Shown here in pieces: positions 2,748 to 63,987 of a stretch of DNA of 64,000 bases. Position 1 is the stretch's first letter. Each line of letters starts with the position of its first letter. The notes under the pieces were generated by a model. That model saw nothing but the letters and a program-made list of their open reading frames with translations, searched no databases and was not told the DNA's origin. The translations under genes were made by a program, and so were the position numbers. Origin of the DNA: a virus; the IMG/VR virus record IMGVR_UViG_3300035701_009377, positions 1-64,000 of that record. The stretch is one strand, 5' to 3'.

Positions 2748-2820
2748 TGCCCCCTGAAGGACTTGAACCTTCGACCACCTGATTAAGAGTCAGATGCTCT
2801 ACCAACTGAGCTAAGGGGGC
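2748..2820 (-). tRNA. tRNA-Lys (anticodon CTT), CCA not encoded; probable integration site
   Basis: Reverse complement GCCCCCTTAGCTCAGTTGGTAGAGCATCTGACTCTTAATCAGGTGGTCGAAGGTTCAAGTCCTTCAGGGGGCA folds into a canonical cloverleaf. Confidence 0.97.
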
Positions 2821-2975: not shown

Positions 2976-4250
2976 ATGCGTCATTCTACCAAAGCCCCAC
3001 GCCCTCACAAGCCCTACCCGGACTTCCCTCTTTTCCCCCACCGCAATGGACAATGGGCCAAGGTGATTCGGGGGGAAATGCACTACTTCGGCTCGTGGAA
3101 AACCGGTACTTGGCAAGACGCCCTTGCCGAGTTTCAGCGGCAGGCCCCGGCGTTGTACAATGGACAACAACCGGACCCCAAGCCGCAAGGCATGACCATC
3201 AAGGAAATGGTCAACCACTTCATGCATCACAGCAGCCTGAAGGTCAAGGCCGGGGAGTTGAAGCAGCGGACGTGGAACGAATATCAGACCTACGGCAACC
3301 GCATCATCGACGTGCTCGGGGCGGACTTCCCCTTGGAAGCCGTGGGACCACGAGCCGGGGAAAAGCTGTTTGAGGCCATGACGAAATGCCACCAATCGCC
3401 CCACTCGCTGGAAGGTGACAAGGCGAAGATCATGGTCTTCTTCAACTACGCCAACGACCAAGACTTCACCGAGCGGCCCATGAAACTGGGGTCACTGTTC
3501 CGGCGGGCCAGCCGCCGCGTGAAGCGCAAGCGCCGGCAAGAGACGCGCGGCCACAAGTTCTTCGAGGCCCAGGAAATTCGCCAGTTGCTAGCGGAGGCCC
3601 CGCCGCGACTGAAAGCGATGATCCTCTTGGCGGTCAATTGCGGTTTCGGCAACGAAGATTGCGCCACGCTTCGCTGTTCCGTCGTCGATCTGGAGAAGGG
3701 TTGGATCGACTTTAGCCGGGCGAAGACCGGCAAAGAACGCCGCTGCCCCCTTTGGCCCGAGACCGTGGCCGCGTTGCGGGAAGTCTATGCCCACCGCAAG
3801 GTGCCAAGCGACTCAGATCACTCCGACTTGGTGTTCGTGACGAAGTACGCGAACGCCTACAACGCGAAATCCAAAGACGGATCGGACAACCCGATCTCGC
3901 AGGTCTTTACGAAGCTGACGAAGAAGTTGCACCTGCATCGTAAAGGGCGTGGCTTCTATGCGCTGCGCCACGTCACCTACACCATCGGTCGGCGGCGGAG
4001 TGCCCTGGGAGCACAAATCATCATGGGCCACCTGGATGCTGAGCGGGTGGGCGAGTTCAGCAACCAGATTTCCGACGAGTGGTATGATGAAGCGGGCAAC
4101 ACCGCGATGGATCATCTGCTGCTGGCGGTGTCGAACTTCATTCACGATTGGCTGTTCCCGAGCAATACTCCGGCACCGGCGGTAGTGGTCGGCGACGCGG
4201 CGAACGCCGTCGCGGCGTCGGCGATTGTAGAGACGCCTGTATCGACGTGA
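2976..4250 (+). CDS. int: Tyrosine recombinase / phage integrase
   Basis: N-terminal arm-binding-like region; LLAVNCGFGNED, RAKTG, FYALRH, IMGH and downstream Tyr; adjacent to tRNA. Confidence 0.9.
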   Translation: MRHSTKAPRPHKPYPDFPLFPHRNGQWAKVIRGEMHYFGSWKTGTWQDALAEFQRQAPALYNGQQPDPKPQGMTIKEMVNHFMHHSSLKVKAGELKQRTWNEYQTYGNRIIDVLGADFPLEAVGPRAGEKLFEAMTKCHQSPHSLEGDKAKIMVFFNYANDQDFTERPMKLGSLFRRASRRVKRKRRQETRGHKFFEAQEIRQLLAEAPPRLKAMILLAVNCGFGNEDCATLRCSVVDLEKGWIDFSRAKTGKERRCPLWPETVAALREVYAHRKVPSDSDHSDLVFVTKYANAYNAKSKDGSDNPISQVFTKLTKKLHLHRKGRGFYALRHVTYTIGRRRSALGAQIIMGHLDAERVGEFSNQISDEWYDEAGNTAMDHLLLAVSNFIHDWLFPSNTPAPAVVVGDAANAVAASAIVETPVST

Positions 4251-6740: not shown

Positions 6741-7090
6741 TTGTCGTTCTCCAAAGGTTGCGGGGCAATGCCCAGACTGGCAATCAGGACGACGCGGTAT
6801 TCGTCGGGGTCACGGGTCTCTTCGATGCGGGTCTGCCAAGTGGCGACACGGCGGCGAAAATCTCTGCGGATTCGCCGGCAGAAGCGGCCTACAAGTTCGC
6901 TGGTCGCGTAGCGCAATTCCTCAAATCCCAATCCGGCCTTAACGATCCATCCGTCTTCCATGACATCGGGGACGATGGGATCGGCCATTGGCTCGATGGC
7001 CTTGATCTCGGACTCGTTGAGGACTTCGGCTACGAAGTTGTTGACGACGCGGCAATATCTGGCTCGTTCGCGGTTGACAGGCTTCTTCAT
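6737..7090 (-). CDS. Hypothetical protein
   Basis: ATGA-coupled ORF. Confidence 0.55.
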   Translation of the reverse strand: MKKPVNRERARYCRVVNNFVAEVLNESEIKAIEPMADPIVPDVMEDGWIVKAGLGFEELRYATSELVGRFCRRIRRDFRRRVATWQTRIEETRDPDEYRVVLIASLGIAPQPLENDK

Positions 7091-7794
7091 GGCATCGACC
7101 TCAGACGGCTGACTCCCAGTCGAATCAGCCGCACGACCGCCAGCGCGTCTTCCACAGCGGTGTGGGCCACTTTGCCATCCAGCCCCGCCCGCTCGTAACA
7201 GGTCTTACTGTCCGGCAGCTTTTCATCATCTGGGCAGAGGAACAGAATGGCGGGGTCGATGGTGCGGTGGGACAGCCTTACGACCTGCTCGAAGCGTGGT
7301 AATCGCTTCAAGAATTGCCGGTCGAAGGAGGCGAAGTTCTTGCCGGCGGGGGTCAATGCCCTCTCCCCGTCCCAGCCGCAGGCGTCCCGCAGCCAGGCCG
7401 CGAAGTCGTCGGCAACCTGATCTGGGTCGCGCCACCACGGCTCTTGTTGGCCCGAAAGGTGCCGCAGCAAGTTGGCGTTCATCGCCAAGGCATAGGCGCT
7501 GCCGCGATATTCTTTGTGGTAGATCAGCCGGTGATAGACCGGCAGGTTATCAATGGGCTTCGTCCAGTTGTCGAACACGGCCCCAATTTCGAGTATCTGG
7601 CAGGTCTCGGGATCGAGGCCCGTGGTCTCGATGTCGATGCTGACGTAGGGCATCTTAGGCGTAACGGCCGGCAGCACTGGCTCCTTGGCGGCCCGCCAGT
7701 AGTGGCCGGTCCAGCCGCAGCCGGCGCAGCGCCCGACCTCGGGGCTCTCGGTCGGCTTCAATAGCTCTTCGCAGTTCGGGCAGAGTTTCTTCAC
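7087..7794 (-). CDS. DEDDh 3'-5' exonuclease (oligoribonuclease/DnaQ-like) with N-terminal Zn ribbon
   Basis: SIDIETTGLD, GKNFASFD, HTAVEDA; CPNC...CAGC. Confidence 0.85.
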   Translation of the reverse strand: MKKLCPNCEELLKPTESPEVGRCAGCGWTGHYWRAAKEPVLPAVTPKMPYVSIDIETTGLDPETCQILEIGAVFDNWTKPIDNLPVYHRLIYHKEYRGSAYALAMNANLLRHLSGQQEPWWRDPDQVADDFAAWLRDACGWDGERALTPAGKNFASFDRQFLKRLPRFEQVVRLSHRTIDPAILFLCPDDEKLPDSKTCYERAGLDGKVAHTAVEDALAVVRLIRLGVSRLRSMP

Positions 7795-9851: not shown

Positions 9852-9977
9852 CTCAGCTTTCCGATTCGACGATGACCACGTTTGTTAGGAATTGGTGCCG
9901 ACCGTCGATCAACACGCTCCGGCACCGGGAGCCGATTCCAACCCAGGAAGGAGGCAAGGGTCTGGTTGCTTGACGGG

Positions 9978-10634
9978 CTACGGACGGCACACCCGCGTCG
10001 AGGTCGATGGCTTCCGAGGGGAAGTCTTCGATCTCGACGATTTCCGCCGCGCCGGCCCGTAGAAGTCGTACCCCTCGGGCACTTGGTAGTCGGCCGGCGG
10101 GAATTCGTGGTCGAGGCCCTTCGACAATTCCATCGCTATCTCGTTCCGGGCGGCCCGGAAGTTGGCCACACGGTTCATGCGGGTCCACAGTTCCTTGCTG
10201 GGCGTTTGGCGTAGCTCGACCATGGCGCGGAACTCGGGCCAGAATTCGGGGGGAATCTCGTGTCGCTTGAGGATGGCGTGCAGGCGTCGAGTGGTCATTG
10301 GTCGGTCGTGCGTTGGTCGTTGTTGGCTGCACGGCGCGGTCGCCGAACCCGCAAGAACTGAGCCTTCGGGCTCGATGTCTTCGGATCGCAACGATTCATA
10401 GGGCACCGGCGACCGGTAGTCGGCCGGCGGAAACTTGTGTCCTAGCGGCTTGGAGAGTTCGGTCAGAATCTCTTTCAGAGCCGCCTTGTAGTTGCGGACG
10501 CGGTTCAGGCGAGTCACCAGGGTGCGGCAGGGGCGCACCCCGTCTTCAACGAGCCCGTGCATCTCGGGCCAGAACTTCTCGGGGATCGCATGGCGCTTCA
10601 GGATGTCATCGAGGATGGGCAGTTTGACAATCAT
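9978..10634 (-). CDS. Hypothetical protein with two copies of an unrecognised ~85-aa domain
   Basis: Internal duplication IL.RH.I...FWPE...TR.NRV.N..AA..EI..ELSK.L.H.FPPADY. Confidence 0.75.
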   Translation of the reverse strand: MIVKLPILDDILKRHAIPEKFWPEMHGLVEDGVRPCRTLVTRLNRVRNYKAALKEILTELSKPLGHKFPPADYRSPVPYESLRSEDIEPEGSVLAGSATAPCSQQRPTHDRPMTTRRLHAILKRHEIPPEFWPEFRAMVELRQTPSKELWTRMNRVANFRAARNEIAMELSKGLDHEFPPADYQVPEGYDFYGPARRKSSRSKTSPRKPSTSTRVCRP

Positions 10635-21530: not shown

Positions 21531-22079
21531 GCTGTGCAATCTTTCTTTGAGGTAGACCAGCGGCTTTCGTCCCCAGGCCGAGTTCCAAGGCCGCGGCACC
21601 AGTATGCCCACCCCGCCGTGGGCCTCGAATTGGCGGATGTTCTCTTCGTTGTCGTCGATTAGCACCGCGCCCGGCTGGGCCAGAAAGTGTTTGCGCGGCG
21701 TGAGGACGTACTGGCGGTGCATCCAGGCCGGGAAGTGGCGATGAATCCACTCCAATTTGCCGGCCACGCAGTCGGGGTCTTTTGTCGGGGCAGTGGCGAT
21801 GCAGACGTTTTCCCGGCCCACGAGACGTGCGGCCTCCTCCAACAGCCAGGGGAAGACCTCGGACTCGGGCACCGTGGCCCACACCTCGCGGCCGATGAAG
21901 TTCCAGAAATCCGGCACTGTGTATTGCCGGCCGCCGAGCCAATTGGTGGCAGCCACGATGTCGTAGCCGACAGGCGGATAATCAGCGTAGTCCGTGGCGC
22001 TCACCTTGCAGCCAAGTTGGTGCAGGGCATACATGGTGAACGTGTTGCACACATCATCCTGATCCAGGAAGATTCTCAT
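21504..22079 (-). CDS. HAD 5'(3')-deoxyribonucleotidase
   Basis: MRIFLDQDDV, IATAP, K..W, LIDD. Confidence 0.85.
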   Translation of the reverse strand: MRIFLDQDDVCNTFTMYALHQLGCKVSATDYADYPPVGYDIVAATNWLGGRQYTVPDFWNFIGREVWATVPESEVFPWLLEEAARLVGRENVCIATAPTKDPDCVAGKLEWIHRHFPAWMHRQYVLTPRKHFLAQPGAVLIDDNEENIRQFEAHGGVGILVPRPWNSAWGRKPLVYLKERLHSTVPTQQRR

Positions 22080-22753
22080 GCCTGTTCTTGGCGGCAGCGC
22101 AGGCCACGCTTTTGGCAGTAATCTGCTTCGATACGGTTCACGATGTTTCCGATCTGCGACTTCTTGTATGGCACCTGAGCGGTGATTTGCCGGTATGTGC
22201 AGCCTGATTCGGATAGCCGCAGGATTTTCCGTTCGGTGTCGTCCTTGCAACAAGAGCGGAGCAGGTCGCGGGCCTGAACCTTTTGTGCCTGCGGAGCTAT
22301 CGGCAGGCGGCAGTGGTCAGGCATTGTGTTCACTACGGAGGGCACCTCGATCTCTTCTCCCTTTGCCTTGGCTCGTTGACGGTCCCCGTGTGACACTTGA
22401 ATTGGCGATTCATCTTCCAGCAGATGTCCGACAGCGGCATTGATGGAGACGCCGATATAACCGTTTGCGTTGGTGCGAACCTTGCCTTCGGCGATCTTAT
22501 TGACAGCCTGGACCAGCGCAAGAAAGCCAGCGCTGGTCAGATCGTCGCGGAGATACGCTAGATGGGGAAACTGGGCCAGAAAACTGTCGACTTTGGCAAC
22601 GACTAGCGGCATGTTGCCCTCAATCATCTGCCGGCGGGCATCAGCGTCACCGGCGACGACAAGCGGATAGAGCCGCTCGTTTTCCTCGACGGAGGACGGT
22701 TCGCCGAGGCGGGCCATGTCGGCAGTCAAATCGCTGTTGTATTGGCTACTCAC
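22076..22753 (-). CDS. Sigma-70-family RNA polymerase sigma factor
   Basis: EENERL...GDADARRQMIEGNMPLVV, DDLTSAGFLALVQAV, C-terminal HTH. Confidence 0.8.
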   Translation of the reverse strand: MSSQYNSDLTADMARLGEPSSVEENERLYPLVVAGDADARRQMIEGNMPLVVAKVDSFLAQFPHLAYLRDDLTSAGFLALVQAVNKIAEGKVRTNANGYIGVSINAAVGHLLEDESPIQVSHGDRQRAKAKGEEIEVPSVVNTMPDHCRLPIAPQAQKVQARDLLRSCCKDDTERKILRLSESGCTYRQITAQVPYKKSQIGNIVNRIEADYCQKRGLRCRQEQA

Positions 22754-23243
22754 AGGTGCGTTCTCCGATGGGGTCGATGCGCCAGGCACAGAAGGGAGCG
22801 AAGCTGCGGGCTTCGCAGGCAGCAGGCGAGTAGTCGTACTCGCCCGCGTCCGGGTCGTAGATGCGGCCGTGGTCGTAGGCGACCGCGTGAAATGAGCGCC
22901 GACTGACTCCTTCGATGACGCCTCGGCTGCCGTTGATCGCGCGCGCAAAGCGCCGCCAGCCGGCATCATCGGTGACGACTTCGCGCGGCTCGTACCTGGG
23001 GCCGGGAGAAAGGATCGGGCATAGTTCGACCGGCGTAACCGCCAGGCCGTGCCGTAGGCACACGTCAACCAATTCCTGAACGTGGAAGCCGGCTCGGCAT
23101 AGCGGCTCAGGCAACACGTGGTTGACGATCTTGCCGCCGTCGTGGCCGATCTCTGCCAGGATGGTGGCGACCGGCATGTCCAGCGCGATGGCGAAGGATG
23201 TCGGCAGACACATCCAGCGCTCGGGTTTGCGTTGTAGGCGCAT
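22746..23243 (-). CDS. Papain-fold C39-like cysteine peptidase
   Basis: Q...C (LQRKPERWMC), GFHVQELVDVCLRHGL, HAVAYD..RIYDP. Confidence 0.6.
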   Translation of the reverse strand: MRLQRKPERWMCLPTSFAIALDMPVATILAEIGHDGGKIVNHVLPEPLCRAGFHVQELVDVCLRHGLAVTPVELCPILSPGPRYEPREVVTDDAGWRRFARAINGSRGVIEGVSRRSFHAVAYDHGRIYDPDAGEYDYSPAACEARSFAPFCAWRIDPIGERTCE

Positions 23244-56095: not shown

Positions 56096-57175
56096 CTACG
56101 CGACAGCGCGCTCGACAATCGGCTCGGTGGCGTTGCACTTGCCGCTAATGGAGATCGTGGCGTCCTTGAAGTTGACCTCCTTCGAGTCGGCCCGGAAGTC
56201 CGGGAAGGTCGTCTTCTCATTCTCAGCCGTGCCGCAGGGCGGCGTGTAGAGCACGATCAGATCAATGGCATAGGGTTCACACGGATCGTCCGAGGAGCTA
56301 ACCCACTCGGCCGCTCCGCCCGTCTGCTTCAGCGCGTCCATCGGGCTGACCGGCTCGCTGGTGCCCTGGGTGATGTGCTCGTAGACGGCCTCCAACTTCA
56401 CGTCCATCGGGGCTTCCTTGCTCTCCCGCACGGTGTCCAGGTTGCCCCGGTCCAGCAGGTACTCGTACTCCTTGTGCTCGGTGTACGTGATGTTGCCGTC
56501 GCCGATCTTGATGCTGAGGTTCTGCGGATAGAACGTGACCACAGCATTGTCAAGGTAGGTGCCGCTTCCGAGGGCCGGCGAAAACTCGATGTTGGTCGTG
56601 GTCGAGCCACCTGCCGCCACGCCCACCACCGTGGTTGCCACGGCCACATCCGTGCCGCCGCCGGTGAGGCTGGTGCCATCGCCGACGAGCAAGGGTTGCG
56701 GGGCCGCACCCAGAGCCCCCTTGAACTCGACCACCCAAGGCGTGGCCGGGCCGGGGCCGCCGGTCACGCCCCAATCGCTGGTCGTGTAGCCGTCGTCCAT
56801 CGCCACCAGGGCGGCCTTGACGGCTGCGGCGTCGGCGTTGTAGGCGATACCCGCCGTCTCGTGGCCGCCGAACGACAGGGTGAAAGTGCCGCCCGACGAG
56901 TCGCTGTCGATTGTGACCGACTGTTTGGCGTTGGTGCCGGACTCGTTTTGCGTGCGAGCCGTGACGGTGTGGAACACCGGCGAGGTCTCTCCGACCACCT
57001 TGAAGCGCGCCCCGAGGGGCACCTGGGTGGCAATGGCGGTGTTCAAGGATACGTTGTCGATGTCAAACTGGGTCGCGCCGACCTGGGGCGGGCTGGACGG
57101 CTCGTTCACCGCCGTCGTGCCGCTGAGGCCGTCTTGGAGAATGACATCGCAGTCTCGCAGTTCGATGCGTGCCAT
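56096..57175 (-). CDS. Major tail tube protein with inserted accessory domain
   Basis: Position; T/S/G-rich; insert GGTFTLSF...IAYNADAAAVKAAL. Confidence 0.75.
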   Translation of the reverse strand: MARIELRDCDVILQDGLSGTTAVNEPSSPPQVGATQFDIDNVSLNTAIATQVPLGARFKVVGETSPVFHTVTARTQNESGTNAKQSVTIDSDSSGGTFTLSFGGHETAGIAYNADAAAVKAALVAMDDGYTTSDWGVTGGPGPATPWVVEFKGALGAAPQPLLVGDGTSLTGGGTDVAVATTVVGVAAGGSTTTNIEFSPALGSGTYLDNAVVTFYPQNLSIKIGDGNITYTEHKEYEYLLDRGNLDTVRESKEAPMDVKLEAVYEHITQGTSEPVSPMDALKQTGGAAEWVSSSDDPCEPYAIDLIVLYTPPCGTAENEKTTFPDFRADSKEVNFKDATISISGKCNATEPIVERAVA

Positions 57176-58223: not shown

Positions 58224-58478
58224 TTAACGACGGTGGGAACGACCGTCCTGGTCCAAGGTCTTTTCCAGACGCTCCATCATCATGGTGTTCTGGGCGATGA
58301 CATCCGAGCAACGCTCCACCAAGGGCAGCAAGACCGTGCGTTGCTCGTCTTCCAGCTTGTCAACGCGATTGCACAAGCGGTTTTCGCGGACCCAGCCCTG
58401 CCAAAGGAAGAAGGCCGTGACCACGATCAAAGGCCCATACTGCTTGAGCAGCGTCACTACATCGGTGAACAAGTCCAT
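58224..58478 (-). CDS. Holin-like single-TM protein
   Basis: KQYGPLIVVTAFFLW followed by coiled coil. Confidence 0.55.
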   Translation of the reverse strand: MDLFTDVVTLLKQYGPLIVVTAFFLWQGWVRENRLCNRVDKLEDEQRTVLLPLVERCSDVIAQNTMMMERLEKTLDQDGRSHRR

Positions 58479-58510
58479 TGCAGGGCCTCCGCAGGAAAAG
58501 GGTGACACGA

Positions 58511-58564: not shown

Positions 58565-59962
58565 TTAGCCGAGCATCGGGACGCAGAGGGCCGAGTCGAG
58601 CACCGCCACACCCGCGAGCACGTCGCAGTTGACGATGGTGCCGCCCGCGTTGATGTCGTACTGCATCAGCACGCGCATCCCGATCCCGTTGAAGTCCTGG
58701 ACCGCAGCGGCGACCCCGGCCGTCGGATGGGGCAGGGCCAGGGGCCGAGTCACCAGGGCGATGGCATTCCGATGGAAGGCCAGGTTCATCGTGCCGTAGG
58801 GGCCGGGGAAGGCGGGGTCGTCGTTGGCGACGGCGACCTCCAACGGCCGATCCAGGTACACGGTGCAGCTCGCGCCGGCGTCTTCCGACTCGATCACCGT
58901 GTAGGTCCGGCGGCTACCACCGGTGCCGAAGGCAAGCAACTGGCCGACCTGCGGGGCATGGGCGGCGGTGTAGCCGTCCAGCACGATTCCCTCGCTATAG
59001 CCGGCCGCGTAGCTGGCCGCTGCGGCGCATGCCTTGTAGGCGGTAGCCACGGCGTTGTCCTCGGTGGCGTACTTCAGCGCCTCGTTCAGCTTGAACCAGG
59101 CGGCGTTGGTCGCCGTGCAATAGGTCGGCTGATCGTTGCCGGCGATGACGACGAACTCACCCACGGTGGGAGCCAGGACGGAAGCAAGCTCCGTCCCCGC
59201 GGCGGTGCCCGCGGCATACGGCTCGGTCACAGGATCGGTGTCGCTGTCGGCACCCGAGAGGACGCAGTTGACGTTCTGGTCCATGTAGGTCTCGAAGCCG
59301 AGGATGCGGCCCAGGGTGGCGTTCTGAAGCGCCGTGCCGCCGTCGCCACGCTCGTTGGCCTTGAGGAACAGGTCGGTCTTGAGCATGGCCGTCTCGCTGG
59401 TGGGGGCCATGACCAGGTTCCGGCCGTCCACGGGGCACTTGTTGACGTTCAGTCGCTCGCGGGCCTCAAGCACGTAGTCCTTGGCGTTGCTGGCCGACAG
59501 GCCGCCCAGTTGGCCGACGCGGTTGCTCGGGCCGCCAAGGTAGGCATGGACCCGGCCCAATAGGGCGCGGTCGATGCCCAGGGCAATGCTCTGCATCGCC
59601 GGGCGGAGGTAGATGGTCGTCAACTCCTCGAAGGACTTGCTGCCTTCCCCGTCGCGGATGACGAAGGACTCGTAGAACCACTGGTCCAACGGCACAGGCA
59701 CGTTGGTCGCCGTGGCGTCTTGCTGCACCAGGGTGGTGCCGTCCTTCTTCCGGCGAATCTTGAACTCGCCGGGCTTGCGAGTGTTCACCACGTCGCCAAA
59801 CTTGGCGATGGTGTTCTCGAACTCGCGGTTGACGAGGCCCGCCATGACCGTGTTCTGCGAGAGCATGGCCACGCCTGCGGCAGCCCACAACTCGGGGATG
59901 AAGGCGTCCAGGTCGTTCTCGTAGCAGGCGTAACGGACCTGCGCATGATACTTACGAAGCAT
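58565..59962 (-). CDS. Major capsid protein (P22-coat-like HK97 fold) with insertion domains
   Basis: FIPELWA, LVNREFE...GDVVNTRKP, NLAFHRNAIALVTRPL. Confidence 0.88.
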   Translation of the reverse strand: MLRKYHAQVRYACYENDLDAFIPELWAAAGVAMLSQNTVMAGLVNREFENTIAKFGDVVNTRKPGEFKIRRKKDGTTLVQQDATATNVPVPLDQWFYESFVIRDGEGSKSFEELTTIYLRPAMQSIALGIDRALLGRVHAYLGGPSNRVGQLGGLSASNAKDYVLEARERLNVNKCPVDGRNLVMAPTSETAMLKTDLFLKANERGDGGTALQNATLGRILGFETYMDQNVNCVLSGADSDTDPVTEPYAAGTAAGTELASVLAPTVGEFVVIAGNDQPTYCTATNAAWFKLNEALKYATEDNAVATAYKACAAAASYAAGYSEGIVLDGYTAAHAPQVGQLLAFGTGGSRRTYTVIESEDAGASCTVYLDRPLEVAVANDDPAFPGPYGTMNLAFHRNAIALVTRPLALPHPTAGVAAAVQDFNGIGMRVLMQYDINAGGTIVNCDVLAGVAVLDSALCVPMLG

Positions 59963-60042
59963 CGTTGTTCTCCACTTCACAGGTGTTTCAGTTTGAGTCA
60001 GCACGCAACAGCGCATGCCTCACGATCCGATCCCCTGGAAGA

Positions 60043-60915
60043 TTAACGGCGGCCAGTGGGCCGAGTCCTCAGAAGCTCAGGGTTCTCCTTTTGGATTTTC
60101 AGATATTGCTGCGGAGTGATCTTCCGCAGGTCAATCTGGCCGTTGCCCGACGTAAGGCCGCCGGTAGCCGAACTCGATCCGATGCCCGACCTGACGCCGG
60201 AGCGGAACATATTGCCCCAGGTGTCGGGATCGTCTTTCATCTTCTTCACGGCATCCTCGGGCGTGTACGCCTTGGTCTCCATTTCGCCCGTCGTTTGGTT
60301 GACGGCCTGCATCTCGACCATCGGCTTGTACTTGCCGGTAGGCTTGCCGGTCTTCGGGTCCACCTCGGGGACCAACTTGGTCAGTGGGCGGAGTTGGTTG
60401 GCAAGCTGGAAGGGCTGAAACGCCTCATGCTTCGTGGCGGCATCGGTCAGTGCCCGCTCGACCGTCGAATCGCGGTACAGGTTCTCGAAGAAGGAAGCCT
60501 TCTCGTTGGCCTCTTTGAGTTGCACGGCATACTGCTCCTGCAACTGTTTCTTCTCCACGGTAAGCTGTTCTTCCTTGCTGCGCAATTGGCCTTGCACGGT
60601 TTCCAAGTTCTCTTGCAGGGCCTTGCGGTCCTTCTCGGTCAAGGTGTTGCTGTCCAGGGCGGCCTTGAGTTTCGTTTCCATCTCCTGCAACTTGGTCTGA
60701 TGCTTGCGGCGGTCCTCAGCCAAGTGTTTGTTCAGGTCGTCCTGCGTGAACATCTTGGCCGCACCGCCGCCGCTGCCGCCACCACCGTCATTGACGCTGC
60801 CAGCCGCGCCGCCACTGGCCGCGCCACCGACTGCTCCACCCGCGCCTCCCACGCCGTCTCCGCCTTCGCCCTCGTAGCAAGCGAACCGCACACCAGCCCA
60901 GTACCGCTTCAACAT
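60043..60915 (-). CDS. Capsid scaffolding protein
   Basis: Gly-rich N-terminus, KMFTQDDLN, long coiled coil; directly upstream of capsid. Confidence 0.85.
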   Translation of the reverse strand: MLKRYWAGVRFACYEGEGGDGVGGAGGAVGGAASGGAAGSVNDGGGGSGGGAAKMFTQDDLNKHLAEDRRKHQTKLQEMETKLKAALDSNTLTEKDRKALQENLETVQGQLRSKEEQLTVEKKQLQEQYAVQLKEANEKASFFENLYRDSTVERALTDAATKHEAFQPFQLANQLRPLTKLVPEVDPKTGKPTGKYKPMVEMQAVNQTTGEMETKAYTPEDAVKKMKDDPDTWGNMFRSGVRSGIGSSSATGGLTSGNGQIDLRKITPQQYLKIQKENPELLRTRPTGRR

Positions 60916-61025: not shown

Positions 61026-61574
61026 CTAGCTGACTCTTGACAACTTCACGGCATCCCCGTCCCGCAGGAACGGCCGCAACAGCCGCCACGCCACGGAACT
61101 GGGGACCATGTTGATGATGTGCTCGATGGGGACTTGGTTCCGCGAATAGCCGGTTCGCACTTGCCCGTAGCCCATCGACTCCACAGACAGGTTCTCCAAT
61201 TCCAGTTCCGGGTCTTTGCCGTCCAGCAAGGCGTAGGCGATCTCGTAGCACGCCCGGCGGATCGCCTCGGGTATTTCGGTGTCCGCGCCCCGTGGGAACT
61301 CCAGCGATTGGCTGGCCTCGGCCGCTTGGATGTCGCTCGGGTCCGCCGCCGAGTTGGCGTCCAAGAGCGTGTAAACGCCGTGCTTGTAGCCCTTGAAGTT
61401 CAGGCCGTCGATGATCTGCGTGGCGGCAACGAGCGCCTTCTCCCGGTCGGCATCGCGGGCAGCGGACCAAGCAGTCTCGTGGAGCCGCTGGGCGAAGTAG
61501 GCCGTTGGCTCGGCAGTCCGTTCTGCCGCGGTATCGCCGTCCTGCTTGCCGTAGTAGTCGAAGTTGATCGCCAC
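61026..61574 (-). CDS. Head-tail adaptor (DnaT-like)
   Basis: EKALVAAT..ID, Q.LEFPR, IPEAIRRACYEIA, LLRPFL. Confidence 0.7.
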   Translation of the reverse strand: MAINFDYYGKQDGDTAAERTAEPTAYFAQRLHETAWSAARDADREKALVAATQIIDGLNFKGYKHGVYTLLDANSAADPSDIQAAEASQSLEFPRGADTEIPEAIRRACYEIAYALLDGKDPELELENLSVESMGYGQVRTGYSRNQVPIEHIINMVPSSVAWRLLRPFLRDGDAVKLSRVS

Positions 61575-61584
61575 TGCTCGCCCC

Positions 61585-62181
61585 CTAACAAGCGATCCAC
61601 GAGTACCCTTGGTCCGCCGCGCCACCGACGATGTAAACCTTCGCTAGATCGTCCACGTAGATGGGCGGCGACTGCTGGCCGGCGGACAGGATGAAGCCGT
61701 CCTCGGCGTTGTCGGCACGATTACCGACCATGATGACGTTGCCGTTGGCCCCGTTGGCGCGAAGCATGACGTACTTCTTTACCGGCCAGCCAACTGCGTG
61801 GCCGTGCTCGTTGACCGTCACCGCAACATCATGTCCCTCGCCTTCCAGGTCCACGTCTACCGCCATCATGGCCTCGATCAATTGCCAGCGCAGCGCCCCG
61901 GCGAAATCCACGGGCCACGGGCCGCCGGCATCGCCGGAGACGGCGACGTTGCCCGCACCGACGACCGCTTCCAGAGCCGCTTGCACGGCTGCCGCCGCAG
62001 CGTCGAAGGCGATGTCTGCCGTCTCGACGCCATCGACGGCCAACTTGAAGTGGCCCGCCGTTGCCGTCACCGTGACCGTTTGCCGGGCACTGGCTGCACC
62101 AAGACGCACCACCTCCGTGCCCACGGTGCCGCTGCCCGTGCGAAACTCGGCCTGCGATTCACGATCAATGTCAACCAGCAT
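61585..62181 (-). CDS. Head-associated accessory protein sharing a domain with the tail tube
   Basis: ETADIAFDAAAAAVQAAL insert; follows portal. Confidence 0.6.
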   Translation of the reverse strand: MLVDIDRESQAEFRTGSGTVGTEVVRLGAASARQTVTVTATAGHFKLAVDGVETADIAFDAAAAAVQAALEAVVGAGNVAVSGDAGGPWPVDFAGALRWQLIEAMMAVDVDLEGEGHDVAVTVNEHGHAVGWPVKKYVMLRANGANGNVIMVGNRADNAEDGFILSAGQQSPPIYVDDLAKVYIVGGAADQGYSWIAC

Positions 62182-62184
62182 GGC

Positions 62185-63987
62185 CTATTCTCCGGTGAAC
62201 TGGCCCTTGCCGCGCACGCGCCGGGCCGTGGTGTCTCGTAGGTCGGTATTACGGCTGGCGGCCTTCTCGTCCGTGCCGGCATTAGGATCAGCGGAAAGGT
62301 CCGCTACGCCGCGGGCCGCCGGGTCGCTGCCTTTCGCCAAGCCGCCGAGGCCCTGCGACTGCGCCATGGCAATCCGCTCGATGCGGGCCAGATGGTCCGC
62401 ACGGGCCTTCTGGTACTCGTCGTCATCGAACCCCAGAGCGATGGAGGCGGTCTGCTCGCCTACCAACCCGGCTTCGGCCGCTTGAACAATTGTCAGCGGA
62501 TCGCTGGTGGTGAAATGAGCGTTGTCGATTTCCTGGTTGATCTGCTCGATGTTCCCGACACTGATCTTGCCGCCTAGAAGGGCCAGCACGACGCACTTGG
62601 CAAGCTCTCGCTTGATCTTCCGCCCCGGCACCGCCGACATCAGCTTCACCAGGTCTTCGGCCTCCTTCACCCGGTCGGAGTCCGTCTTGAGGCTGTAGCG
62701 ATCCGGGTACTTGATCGTCGCCACCTCGCGGCGGGCCTCGCTCCGTTCCTCATAGGCCGCCCAGTGCTCGGCGATCTGCCGCTCGGCGTTTTCCAACACC
62801 AATCCGATGTAGGACAACCCGGCTTCGAGCCCCTGGTTGTCCATCTGCTTCGACTCTGCCGACACTCGCACCGCCAAGCTCGACACGGCCAGGTTGACCA
62901 ACTCGCGGATGTCCCGCTTGATCCGGTCCTGCAATTCCAGGCTCGCCCGCAGCGGCTCGGCCGAGGGATTGATAAAGGCGGGCGCGTTCATCCCTTTGTC
63001 GTAGGTCCGGCCGTGGGTCGCGCCCACTTTGATGTCGGTGTCGGCCGCGCCTTGGCCGCCGGTTGTCGCCGTCCCATCCGCATTGGCCGCTGGCTTCAAA
63101 TGGGCACCGACCGCCCGCAGGTCCTTCTGCTCGATGTAGAACGGGAAGTTGCTCCGCAAGGCGTAATTCACATCGCTCGAACCGAGGTTGAGTAGTGCGA
63201 CTTGCTGGGCGCAAACGTCCTTAATCATGCTGTCGCCCAGATCAAGCATGACGAAGGGGATGCGCGTCAATTCCAATTGGTAGGCACCGCTCGGAAGGCC
63301 CTCGCGGTTCACCGGCTTTCCGTCCACGTCGTAGAATTGCAGGCTGACCAGGCCGGTCTTCGGGTCGATCCACAACCGGCGGTAGCGGCTCACGGATCGC
63401 GTCGGCAGCAGGTACTCCTCGTCGTACTGCATCACCGTGTCGCGCAGGAGCACCGATTGGAACTCGCTCGGCTCTTCGGCGTTGCCGCACGACCAGCTCA
63501 AAATGTCCTCGATGTCGTACTTGTAGAGGTACGGCCGCACGTCGCCCGCCTCGGCCAGCGTCAGCGGGGCAGGAACCGCCGGAGCGTCCACGTACACGCC
63601 CACGCGGCCCATGACCAACAGTTCCGTCAGCACCTTGACGCCGAAAAAGGCGTTCATCGTCGAGCCGCGGCGGTCCACGCCCAGGTCCAGCCCGGCCACG
63701 GCGTTCTGGTAGGCTTGGCTCCCCCCACGCCGCGTGATGTCCCGCATCCGCTGGAAGATCGCGTTGCGGATGTCGTTGATGGCCGCCTTGGCGAAGGCCG
63801 GGACCGGGGTGATGTTCTTGCGGGTGATGAAATCCGTGTTGTCTTCCCTGGTGGTGAACCGCTCCAAGTAGGAATCGCGGAACTCCTCACCGCCGGAATA
63901 GGTCAGCCGCCACTTGCCCCAGTCAGTCTGATCGCCCAGGTACGAGGGATGGCGACTGTCGATGATGCGAGGTTTCTGGTCGGCCAT
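62185..63987 (-). CDS. Portal protein
   Basis: RHPSY...W, GRVGVYVD, IPFV, SAESK; 600 aa at start of head module. Confidence 0.85.
   Translation of the reverse strand: MADQKPRIIDSRHPSYLGDQTDWGKWRLTYSGGEEFRDSYLERFTTREDNTDFITRKNITPVPAFAKAAINDIRNAIFQRMRDITRRGGSQAYQNAVAGLDLGVDRRGSTMNAFFGVKVLTELLVMGRVGVYVDAPAVPAPLTLAEAGDVRPYLYKYDIEDILSWSCGNAEEPSEFQSVLLRDTVMQYDEEYLLPTRSVSRYRRLWIDPKTGLVSLQFYDVDGKPVNREGLPSGAYQLELTRIPFVMLDLGDSMIKDVCAQQVALLNLGSSDVNYALRSNFPFYIEQKDLRAVGAHLKPAANADGTATTGGQGAADTDIKVGATHGRTYDKGMNAPAFINPSAEPLRASLELQDRIKRDIRELVNLAVSSLAVRVSAESKQMDNQGLEAGLSYIGLVLENAERQIAEHWAAYEERSEARREVATIKYPDRYSLKTDSDRVKEAEDLVKLMSAVPGRKIKRELAKCVVLALLGGKISVGNIEQINQEIDNAHFTTSDPLTIVQAAEAGLVGEQTASIALGFDDDEYQKARADHLARIERIAMAQSQGLGGLAKGSDPAARGVADLSADPNAGTDEKAASRNTDLRDTTARRVRGKGQFTGE

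What the first reader, a model, noticed from the sequence alone, without database searches (positions are those of the whole stretch)
59912..60915. Scaffold and major capsid share an N-terminal leader motif: candidate leader-cleavage maturation system
Seen: the scaffold starts MLKRYWAGVRFACYE and the capsid starts MLRKYHAQVRYACYE (consensus ML[KR][KR]YxAxVR[FY]ACYE). The rest of the two proteins is unrelated, and no prohead protease gene lies between portal and capsid. Known: in Firmicutes phages such as 80alpha, scaffold and capsid carry a shared leader cleaved by the cysteine protease Prp, but that motif (LQFF/A) is different. Inference: this is an analogous leader/protease pair with a different motif. 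The phage's standalone C39-like peptidase (22746-23243) or a host protease are the candidates.
Basis: partly seen in the sequence, partly recalled or inferred. Interest (0 to 1): 0.8.

Follow-up and report, generated by a model that had tools for sequence, protein, structure and literature searches.

The report
Shared leader peptide on virion proteins
The scaffold and coat proteins of this prophage start with the same short peptide. In hundreds of related uncultured phages that peptide differs from phage to phage yet always matches among one phage's own virion proteins, so it looks like a removable assembly tag of a new type whose processing enzyme is still unknown.

Summary
Scaffold (60043-60915, minus) and P22-like coat (58565-59962, minus) share 10 of their first 15 residues, and nothing else in the 75-kb provirus carries the motif.

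- **Spread:** the same arrangement occurs in over 130 non-identical scaffold/coat pairs from related viral contigs.
- **Variation:** the leader is hypervariable between phages, with 25 mutually dissimilar types. It matches within each genome (3.7 of 7 residues against 0.6 of 7 across genomes).
- **Level of constraint:** synonymous codons are randomised, so selection acts on the peptide, not on RNA or through gene conversion.
- **Conserved features:** What is constant is a hydrophobic core ending in Tyr/Phe/His, followed by acidic residues.
- **Boundary:** leaderless relatives lack the leader on both proteins, and their coats start exactly at that boundary.
- **Other carriers:** in some relatives the phage's own leader also heads the tail tube, portal or tape measure.

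My best reading (about 0.5) is a portable propeptide read by one phage-specific partner and probably clipped after Tyr14. This is analogous to 80alpha/Prp, but it is not a member of that system.

The C39-like gene (22746-23243) does have a C39 fold and an intact catalytic set, and it is a core gene of the clade. However, it is always operonic with a sigma factor, and nothing links it to the leader.

The parts
60874..60915 (-). Scaffold leader, residues 1-14 (MLKRYWAGVRFACY). The predicted boundary is after Tyr14.
   Evidence: The boundary is inferred from leaderless homologues.
60757..60870 (-). Acidic start (EGEGGDG) and Gly/Ala-rich low-complexity linker of the scaffold, residues 16-53. It tethers the leader to the coiled-coil body.
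   Evidence: The phrog_206 match starts at residue 62.
60043..60915 (-). Scaffolding protein, 290 aa (P0002)
   Evidence: phrog_206, E 8e-13; 157 homologues
59921..59962 (-). Coat-protein leader, residues 1-14 (MLRKYHAQVRYACY). The predicted boundary is after Tyr14, and the mature start would be ENDLDAFIPELWA.
58565..59962 (-). Major capsid protein, P22-coat type, 465 aa (P0001)
   Evidence: PF11651 1.3e-31 and phrog_283 1.4e-60; the profile starts at residue 15
61026..62181 (-). The two genes between portal and scaffold: a 198-aa protein with an Ig-like domain and an Ad1-type head-tail adaptor. Neither is a protease.
62185..63987 (-). Portal protein. It has no leader in this phage, but carries one in relative L250.
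   Evidence: phrog_145; L250 portal MNKKVWKTIF|AAPV
56096..57175 (-). Tail-tube-type protein, leaderless here (MARIELRD...). Homologues in at least 7 relatives carry that phage's own leader.
22746..23243 (-). Stand-alone C39-fold cysteine peptidase (P0253). It is the only phage-encoded candidate for the leader peptidase, and the link is unproven.
   Evidence: Invariant Q4/C12/H119/D130; AF2 pLDDT 86.8; top Foldseek hits are PCAT1/LahT150/ComA peptidase domains, E 5e-5; a core gene of the clade
22076..22753 (-). Sigma-70-family factor (P0404). Its start overlaps the end of P0253 by 8 nt.
   Evidence: The adjacency is conserved in 58 of 74 loci.

Best explanation
The first 14 residues of the scaffold and of the coat are a portable N-terminal leader, that is, a propeptide-like tag. 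It consists of a basic N-end, a hydrophobic core that ends in an aromatic residue (Tyr14 here), and then acidic residues.

Each phage of this large uncultured clade has its own version. It places that version on its scaffold and coat, and in some lineages also on the tail tube, portal or tape measure. This implies one common, phage-specific partner that reads the tag.

The tag is fused with zero spacing to what is the native N-terminus in leaderless homologues. It is therefore most probably cut off right after the aromatic residue: Tyr14|Glu15 in both window proteins. That would give mature proteins identical to the leaderless forms.

In logic this works like the Prp-cleaved leader of staphylococcal phage 80alpha, but with an unrelated, hypervariable sequence and an unidentified enzyme. 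The clade-wide C39-fold peptidase at 22746-23243, co-transcribed with the phage sigma factor, is the only phage-encoded candidate; I put its sub-probability at about 0.3.

Shown: the leader, its distribution, its co-variation, its boundary and its coupled loss. Inferred: recognition by a common factor, cleavage, and the enzyme.
For: 1. Conservation: about 100 coat and about 110 scaffold homologues start with the leader. It is present in 139 non-identical scaffold/coat loci.
2. Within-genome matching: among 25 mutually dissimilar leader types, the own pair shares 3.68 of 7 residues (P8-P2) against 0.60 of 7 across genomes. None of 20000 shuffles reached the observed value.
3. Protein-level selection: at 860 identical residues in 111 pairs the same codon is used 39% of the time, against 36% expected. 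No pair has fully identical codons. In the window pair, 3 of 9 codons are identical.
4. Boundary: P1 is Tyr/Phe/His (Trp in one of the 25 types). P1' is Ala/Asp/Glu in most coats and Glu/Asp in most scaffolds. Leaderless coats begin M-ANDN..., exactly the residue after P1.
5. Coupled absence: leaderless coats sit next to leaderless scaffolds in L280, L305, L307 and L311, in the same module architecture.
6. Portability: the phage's own leader also heads other virion proteins.
   - Tail tube in G032/L192, L209, L225, L230, L231, L237 and L238, as [YFH]|A(Q/P)IDLK (L237 reads F|LVIDLK). Leaderless homologues, the window's included, mostly start MAQIDLK or MARIELR.
   - Portal in L250.
   - Tape measure in L249.
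7. No canonical prohead protease is present.
8. Precedent: 80alpha CP and SP share a leader cleaved by Prp, and the same motif occurs on the major tail protein of phi13 (PMC5744158).
9. Candidate enzyme: C39 fold, intact catalytic residues, and present in every complete genome checked. This includes G049 once a broader HMM was used, E 1.4e-14.
Against: - There is no direct evidence that either protein is cleaved. No proteomic or N-terminal data exist for this uncultured phage.
- Protease recognition sites are normally conserved among related phages. The extreme divergence with intragenomic matching fits a direct leader-leader interaction at least as well.
- The leaders lack the Gly-Gly/Gly-Ala site of C39 substrates.
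- P0253 lies in the replication region, about 36 kb from the head genes. Its conserved neighbour is a sigma factor, which suggests a regulatory role.
- P0253 is a core gene of the whole clade, so its co-occurrence with the leader does not discriminate.
- In 80alpha cleavage is dispensable while the scaffold leader itself is required (PMC5744158). The function may therefore lie in the uncleaved leader.
Confidence: 0.5

Rival explanations
1. Uncleaved homotypic tag. The leaders bind one another, for example as a short hydrophobic beta-strand zipper with a basic end and an acidic end. This would bring scaffold, coat and other virion proteins together, or nucleate co-assembly. Like-with-like pairing would itself explain why the copies in one genome must match while the sequence drifts freely between genomes.
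For: Intragenomic matching with extreme intergenomic divergence is the signature seen in matched interaction motifs. The scaffold carries the leader on a long flexible Gly/Ala/Asp-rich tether. In 80alpha the scaffold leader is needed for assembly whereas cleavage is not (PMC5744158).
Against: The same tag sits on the tail tube, tape measure and portal in some relatives. These proteins assemble separately from the shell interior. The zero-spacing fusion to native N-termini is easier to explain if the tag is removed. A hydrophobic tag kept on hundreds of coat subunits inside a DNA-filled head seems unfavourable (inference).
Confidence: 0.25
2. Mimicry of a host substrate. The leaders copy the N-terminal extension of a host protein, as 80alpha copies ribosomal protein L27, and a host protease removes them.
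For: This is the only experimentally known mechanism for a leader shared by scaffold and coat (PMC5744158). Leader length (9-16 aa) and an aromatic P1 resemble the Prp site FF|A. The phage record encodes no canonical head protease.
Against: Closely related phages (coats 60-75% identical) carry quite different leaders, and 25 dissimilar types exist. A host enzyme with an essential cellular substrate should hold the motif constant. Generic recognition would not force the copies within one genome to match. No Prp or L27 gene lies in the record. The host is unidentified, so its L27 could not be read.
Confidence: 0.1
3. The C39-fold peptidase works on something other than the leader, for example processing the adjacent sigma factor or an anti-sigma or host factor. 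In that case the leader's partner is another, unrecognised phage protein such as a chaperone.
For: The peptidase-sigma gene pair is conserved, in many loci with overlapping stop and start (58 of 74 loci; also found in G049). The sigma factor is weakly most similar to sporulation sigma factors, including SigE and SigK. From my own knowledge, SigE and SigK are made as pro-proteins, with spoIIGA-sigE as a precedent operon.
Against: The sigma factor's N-terminus shows no obvious pro-sequence. Co-transcription with a late sigma factor would also suit an enzyme needed late in infection.
Confidence: 0.1
4. Cysteine-based chemistry or a lipobox-type signal. The xxAC motif would mark lipidation, a disulphide or an N-terminal nucleophile.
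For: FAC and YAC resemble the lipobox FAGC of two lipoproteins encoded in the same phage. The Cys is invariant in the close family.
Against: In more distant but clearly homologous pairs the Cys is Leu, Val, Gly, Ala or Met in both proteins. The segment before it is too short and too polar for a signal peptide. The carriers are cytoplasmic virion proteins.
Confidence: 0.02
5. An RNA-level element, gene conversion or chance similarity.
For: The two gene starts lie less than 1 kb apart and share GCYTGCTACGAG.
Against: Codon identity at identical residues is at chance level (0.39 against 0.36). The upstream regions do not align. The pattern recurs in over 130 loci with different sequences.
Confidence: 0.02

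Closest known systems
Prp-cleaved N-terminal leader of Staphylococcus phage 80alpha capsid and scaffolding proteins (host protease Prp; natural substrate ribosomal protein L27)
   Same: A short N-terminal leader (13-14 aa) is shared by an otherwise unrelated scaffold and coat. The phage has no prohead protease of its own. The residue before the (predicted) cut is aromatic. The same tag also occurs on other virion proteins in related phages, such as the major tail protein of phi13 (PMC5744158).
   Different: The sequence is unrelated and there is no LQFF|A motif. The leader is hypervariable and genome-specific instead of copying a conserved host motif. It occurs on up to five virion protein classes. 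No Prp was found and the host is unknown. Cleavage has not been shown.
C39 double-glycine leader peptidases (PCAT1, ComA, LahT150)
   Same: P0253 has the same fold (Foldseek E 5e-5 to 1e-3, TM 0.53-0.64) and the Gln/Cys/His/Asp catalytic set in the same order. These enzymes specifically remove N-terminal leaders.
   Different: There is no sequence-level match to Pfam, NCBIfam or PDB. P0253 stands alone, is cytoplasmic and sits next to a sigma factor rather than an ABC transporter. The putative substrates end in an aromatic residue, not Gly-Gly.
P22-type scaffold-dependent, protease-independent head assembly
   Same: The coat belongs to PF11651. A separate 290-aa scaffold has a coiled coil and a basic C-terminal end. 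There is no protease between portal and coat. Leaderless relatives have the same module.
   Different: From my own knowledge, P22 coat and scaffold have no shared leader and are not processed.
Prohead-protease consensus sites on many head proteins (for example T4 gp21, cutting after LxE)
   Same: One recognition element is shared by several structural proteins.
   Different: From my own knowledge, those sites are conserved among relatives and may be internal, and the protease is encoded in the head module. Here the tag is strictly N-terminal, it is variable, and no such protease exists.
Matched short terminal motifs of adjacent genes in amyloid-signalling pairs (fungal HET-s/NWD2 and bacterial BASS motifs); an analogy drawn from my own knowledge
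   Same: A short motif co-varies between two neighbouring genes and diverges between loci, as expected for like-with-like pairing.
   Different: Those motifs are longer (about 20-25 aa) and Gly/Asn/Gln-rich, and they link an NLR to an effector. None involves virion proteins.

Membership tests
80alpha/Prp-type leader system | Scaffold and coat share an N-terminal leader of about 13-14 residues | tested here: met
80alpha/Prp-type leader system | The leader matches the L27 extension motif (L-x-L-Q-F-F|A) | tested here: not met
   The leaders read MLKRYWAGVRFACY and MLRKYHAQVRYACY, and 25 other types were found, none with LQFF. The motif is taken from PMC5744158.
80alpha/Prp-type leader system | Prp (PF04327) and an N-terminally extended L27 are present in the host | not testable with these tools
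   The host is unidentified. The provirus record holds neither gene. Host look-ups failed.
80alpha/Prp-type leader system | The leader is removed in procapsids and virions | not testable with these tools
   This needs proteomics. No RNA or protein data were available.
C39 leader peptidase (for P0253) | Papain-like fold closest to C39 peptidase domains | tested here: met
   AF2 pLDDT 86.8. The top 12 Foldseek hits are all PCAT1, LahT150 or ComA peptidase domains.
C39 leader peptidase (for P0253) | Catalytic Gln...Cys...His...Asp conserved | tested here: met
   Q4, C12, H119 and D130 are invariant in 15 sequences down to 38% identity
C39 leader peptidase (for P0253) | Sequence match to the family model (Pfam Peptidase_C39 and relatives) | tested here: not met
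   No Pfam, PHROG, NCBIfam or PDB sequence hit
C39 leader peptidase (for P0253) | The substrate leader ends in Gly-Gly, Gly-Ala or Gly-Ser | tested here: not met
   The leaders end in [C/A/V/...][Y/F/H], and there is no double glycine in the coats
C39 leader peptidase (for P0253) | Fused to or encoded with an ABC exporter | tested here: not met
   The neighbours are an endonuclease-like gene and a sigma factor
P22-type coat protein (PF11651 / phrog_283) | Profile match over the HK97-like body | tested here: met
   PF11651 1.3e-31 (cut-off passed); phrog_283 1.4e-60 over residues 15-464
Canonical prohead protease systems (S78/U35, S49, ClpP) | A protease gene in the head module or elsewhere in the phage | tested here: not met
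   No hit in the 75-kb record, which is 73% complete. The genes between portal and coat are accounted for.
Bacterial lipoprotein signal peptide | Invariant lipobox Cys after a hydrophobic h-region | tested here: not met
   The Cys is replaced by L/V/G/A/M in homologous leaders, and the preceding segment is only 8-12 residues

The most novel reading that the evidence does not exclude
The leader is a genome-specific 'assembly barcode'. It would be a fast-evolving self-recognition tag, read by a co-evolving phage factor or by the leaders themselves. It would ensure that only a phage's own scaffold, coat, tail tube, portal and tape measure enter its assembly line. Its diversification would be driven by conflict with co-infecting relatives, capsid-hijacking satellites, or host sensors of virion proteins.
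Probability: 0.15. Interest if true: 0.9.

Novelty: new variant of a known kind. Interest (0 to 1): 0.72.

Why it matters
A leader shared by scaffold and coat is known experimentally only from 80alpha-type Firmicutes phages, where it copies a host ribosomal protein and its purpose is still unclear.

This case differs in three ways. The same logic appears in a large, environmentally widespread clade of 80-150-kb uncultured phages, found in sediment, freshwater, wetland and wastewater metagenomes. The tag is unrelated in sequence and hypervariable, yet it matches within each genome. It can also move onto tail tube, portal and tape measure.

That pattern makes an open question directly testable: what are such leaders for? 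The candidates are a timing switch through cleavage, a chaperone address, or self/non-self discrimination during assembly. Natural leader-swap, leaderless and multi-protein variants are already in hand.

The finding also gives a precise predicted processing site and a candidate peptidase of a fold not so far linked to virion maturation, as far as my literature searches show.

Tried and rejected
- **Complex prediction, P0253 with scaffold residues 1-40:** no support (score 0.02, mark 0.32). This is not evidence either way.
- **AF2 of the coat with 30 homologues:** poor model, pLDDT 53.8, with the leader at about 30. Uninformative.
- **Host identification failed.**
  - The genome-contig scan used patterns that were too specific and returned only two distant relatives.
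  - The cluster look-up gave no accessions.
  - The protein atlas gave only 'Viruses'.
- **Cultured phages:** none has a close coat (34% identity or less) and none has a scaffold match.
- **Sequencing runs:** only DNA metagenome holders were listed and no RNA holder.
- **TerS-TerL cassette peptidases** (permuted NlpC/P60-like at 68406-69008 and a lipoprotein papain-like protein at 67373-67945 of the record): conserved only in close relatives and not detected in G025, G032, G045 or G049, so they are not general partners of the leader.
- **Apparent absence of P0253 from the complete genome G049:** this was a sensitivity artefact. A broader HMM finds it at 75077-75571, next to a sigma gene.
- **P0253 in a leaderless phage could not be tested.** Leaderless contigs in IMG/VR are short. 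The 43.8-kb metagenome contig behind L307 cannot be searched. A wider leaderless alignment had no usable pattern.
- **Literature searches** found no description of this leader or of a C39-type head-maturation enzyme.
- **A partial-Mantel test of leader against P0253 divergence** was considered and dropped as underpowered and confounded by phylogeny.
Full report
**1. What is in the window**

The genes lie on the minus strand.
- The coat gene is 58565-59962 (465 aa, P0001). It starts at ATG 59962, with GGAGAA 7 nt upstream.
- The scaffold gene is 60043-60915 (290 aa, P0002). It starts at ATG 60915.
- The coat is a P22-type coat: PF11651 at 1.3e-31 and phrog_283 at 1.4e-60. The profile begins at residue 15 of the protein.
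- The scaffold matches phrog_206 from residue 62.
- The two N-termini, MLRKYHAQVRYACYE and MLKRYWAGVRFACYE, share 10 of 15 residues.
- In the scaffold the leader is followed by EGEGGDG and a roughly 38-residue Gly/Ala-rich linker. In the coat it is followed directly by the conserved N-arm NDLDAFIPELWA.
- No other reading frame of the 75.4-kb provirus record has the motif. This record is G000; the window is bases 1-64000 of it. A BLOSUM scan gives 48 for the reciprocal hit and 27 or less for everything else.

The head module reads: TerS-like, a cassette of exported or peptidase-like genes, TerL, portal, a 198-aa Ig-like-domain protein, an Ad1 adaptor, scaffold, coat. There is no prohead protease between portal and coat. 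S78, S49, ClpP and Prp family searches of the record are empty.

**2. The leader is conserved, but not as a fixed motif**

Database searches gave 1383 coat relatives and 157 scaffold relatives. Among the best 120 of each, nearly all full-length proteins start with a leader:
- coats with MN[RS]LYLSxPFxAC[YF]EN;
- scaffolds with M..SLYLSRPWS[AS]C[FY]EGE;
- only the window's small subclade has ML[KR][KR]Y..VR[FY]ACYE.

I fetched 80 viral contigs with the coat alignment, 80 more with a set of divergent coats, and regions of 19 further records. This gave 161 loci with both genes, 139 of them non-identical.

Farther from the window, the leader changes almost completely. Examples are KFFKPVY, YQIKWVG, ARPIAH, LLLLAY, WNPAY, TQPFxLVY, ARFVG[YF] and FLTVH. 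The Cys that looked invariant becomes Leu, Val, Gly, Ala or Met.

What persists is the following:
- a basic N-end;
- a hydrophobic core;
- a last residue that is Tyr, Phe or His (Trp in one of the 25 types);
- then Ala/Asp/Glu-Asn in most coats and Glu/Asp-Gly in most scaffolds.

**3. The copies within one genome match each other**

- From 118 pairs I picked 25 representatives whose leaders are mutually dissimilar (2 of 7 identical or fewer). The scaffold and coat of the same phage share 3.68 of 7 residues at P8-P2. Scaffold and coat from different phages share 0.60 of 7. None of 20000 shuffles reached the observed value. An earlier test on the close family gave the same direction.
- This is not recent copying. 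At 860 positions where the paired leaders have the same amino acid (Met and Trp excluded), the same codon is used in 39% of cases, against 36% expected from codon usage. No pair has all codons identical.
- In the window pair 3 of 9 codons are identical, and the upstream regions do not align.

The constraint therefore acts on the peptide and has been maintained through saturating synonymous change. This excludes an RNA element, gene conversion and chance.

**4. The boundary, and coupled loss**

- A search of 1.8 billion representative proteins returned coats down to 34% identity. Most have an N-terminal extension ending in ...[V/A/C/L/G][Y/F] before ANDNDA-type sequence.
- Several lack the extension and start M-ANDN..., M-ANNND... 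or M-ANS.SA.... That is exactly the residue after the aromatic one.
- Where such leaderless coats could be placed on contigs (L280, L305/L308, L307, L311), the scaffold upstream is also leaderless: MTDVKPISDP..., MSDVANDQGG..., MSDLPNQEAS..., MSDDTNVGNE.... The portal-adaptor-scaffold-coat order is the same and again has no protease.
- I found no clear case with a leader on only one of the two proteins.

The leader is thus an accessory module, gained or lost jointly, on top of a P22-like assembly pathway without a protease.

**5. The leader is portable**

Scanning each locus with that phage's own leader found further carriers.
- **Tail tube.** The homologue of window 56096-57175 carries the leader in several relatives:
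  - G032/L192: MLRLLSRAPFLTVH|APIDLK, beside coat ...RQFLTVH|TQD and scaffold ...KPWLCVH|ADGD;
  - G036/L209: ...PRLVAY|APIDLK, beside ARFVGY and ARFVGF;
  - also L225, L230, L231, L237 and L238, for example MHRVWYSVY|AQIDLK beside KVWRSVY and KVWYSVY.
  - Most leaderless tail-tube homologues, the window's included, start MAQIDLK or MARIELR. The tag is therefore again fused exactly at the native N-terminus.
- **Portal.** In L250 the portal (phrog_145) starts MNKKVWKTIF|AAPV..., beside KSWQAVF and KVWFTVF.
- **Tape measure.** In L249 the tape measure protein starts ...LIYQIKNRKWY|GGEE, beside YVRSRSWY and KIKDRSWY.

Heads and tails assemble separately. A tag common to coat, scaffold, portal, tail tube and tape measure therefore points to one trans-acting reader, not to a coat-scaffold contact alone. 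The zero-spacing fusion argues that the tag is removed to restore the native N-terminus. For the window this predicts cleavage at Tyr14|Glu15 in both proteins. This is an inference, because no protein data exist.

**6. The candidate enzyme**

Points in favour:
- P0253 (22746-23243) has no family or PDB sequence match.
- Even so, Gln4, Cys12, His119 and Asp130 are invariant in 15 homologues down to 38% identity.
- The AF2 model is confident, at pLDDT 86.8.
- Its 12 best Foldseek matches are the C39 leader-peptidase domains of PCAT1, LahT150 and ComA, with E 5e-5 to 1e-3.
- The gene is a core gene of the clade.
  - It was found in 14 of 16 close records.
  - It occurs in 60 viral contigs at 30-61% identity, and 25 of 30 such records checked also hold the coat.
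  - It was found in 12 of 20 more distant leader-bearing records.
  - With a broader HMM it also appears in the complete genome G049 that had seemed to lack it.

Points that leave the link open:
- It sits in the replication region, between a DNA polymerase and endonuclease-like gene and a nucleotidase and ligase.
- In 58 of 74 loci a sigma-70-family gene follows it directly, in many of them overlapping its end (P0404, 22076-22753). That suits either an enzyme made together with a late sigma factor or a regulator of that factor.
- The leaders have no Gly-Gly site.
- Because every member of the clade has the gene, co-occurrence with the leader does not discriminate.
- The test that would discriminate, a long leaderless genome, was out of reach.
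- The two peptidase-like genes in the TerS-TerL cassette are confined to close relatives.

**7. Weighing the mechanisms**

- **Cleaved, phage-specific leader (about 0.5).** This explains portability, the precise boundary, the coupled loss and the 80alpha precedent. In 80alpha, Prp cuts CP and SP at F|A, the same motif occurs on a tail protein of phi13, the SP leader is required, and cleavage is dispensable (PMC5744158).
- **Uncleaved like-with-like tag (about 0.25).** This explains the hypervariability with matching most naturally. It explains the tail-protein carriers and the zero spacing less well.
- **Host Prp-like enzyme (about 0.1).** This is disfavoured by 25 dissimilar leader types among related phages, but it could not be tested because the host stayed unknown.
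- **Cys chemistry or a lipobox, and RNA or gene-conversion explanations.** These are contradicted.

**8. Comparison and novelty**

In function this resembles the 80alpha/Prp leader. It is not a member of that system, since the motif test failed and Prp could not be tested. It resembles C39 systems only through the fold of one unlinked gene. I found no description of it in the searchable literature, and no cultured relative exists. I class it as a new variant of a known kind, with an unusual property: intragenomic matching of a hypervariable tag across up to five virion protein classes. That property could turn out to be a new principle, an assembly barcode, if confirmed.

Noticed in passing
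window 22076-23243 (minus strand): The C39-fold peptidase gene and a sigma-70-family gene form a conserved pair, here with an 8-nt overlap. An endonuclease-like gene precedes them. The pair is present across the whole phage clade. The sigma factor is weakly most similar to sporulation sigma factors. This could be a protease-sigma regulatory module in the manner of spoIIGA-sigE.
   Followed up: partly
L044-L047 at about 9900-10001, and L050 at about 7000-7220 (viral contigs related to the window): The coat gene loses its 5' end near codons 17-25. It is preceded there by an inserted ORF, which in L050 carries a LAGLIDADG-like motif (LSWLGGIVDGEG). This is probably an intron or homing-endonuclease insertion splitting the coat gene just after the leader.
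   Followed up: partly
G000 65685-69737 (L003 3685-7737), just beyond the window end: A cassette lies between the TerS-like gene and TerL. It holds a permuted NlpC/P60-like protein, an HNH-AP2 endonuclease, a lipoprotein papain-like protein, an exported thioredoxin-like protein, a TM protein and a WCVPC thioredoxin lipoprotein. Both lipoproteins have the lipobox FAGC. The cassette is conserved only in close relatives.
   Followed up: partly
window 61585-62181 and 56096-57175: The 198-aa head-cluster protein and the tail-tube-type protein both match the same PHROG tail-protein families (phrog_10909, phrog_2839) over a 70-110-residue stretch. This suggests a shared Ig-like display domain on head and tail.
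   Followed up: no
window 2748-2820 and 2976-4250: A tRNA-Lys(CTT) gene lies next to a tyrosine integrase, which is the likely attachment site. DNA methylase fragments at 1053-2054 lie outside it. A serine recombinase and a second integrase sit at the other end of the record (71142-71930 and 74778-75407).
   Followed up: no
G046 (IMG/VR record behind L120; 129 kb, rated complete): The record holds a P0253 homologue (53% identity) and the adjacent sigma gene, but the coat profile found no match. Either its coat gene is split or divergent, or the peptidase-sigma pair also occurs outside the leader-bearing head type.
   Followed up: no
window 58224-58508 (minus strand): A 94-aa ORF with one predicted hydrophobic helix lies directly downstream of the coat gene. 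It is conserved at that position in 19 of the 20 related viral loci checked with ±10-kb flanks, and elsewhere in one of four more distant complete genomes. Its function is unknown.
   Followed up: no
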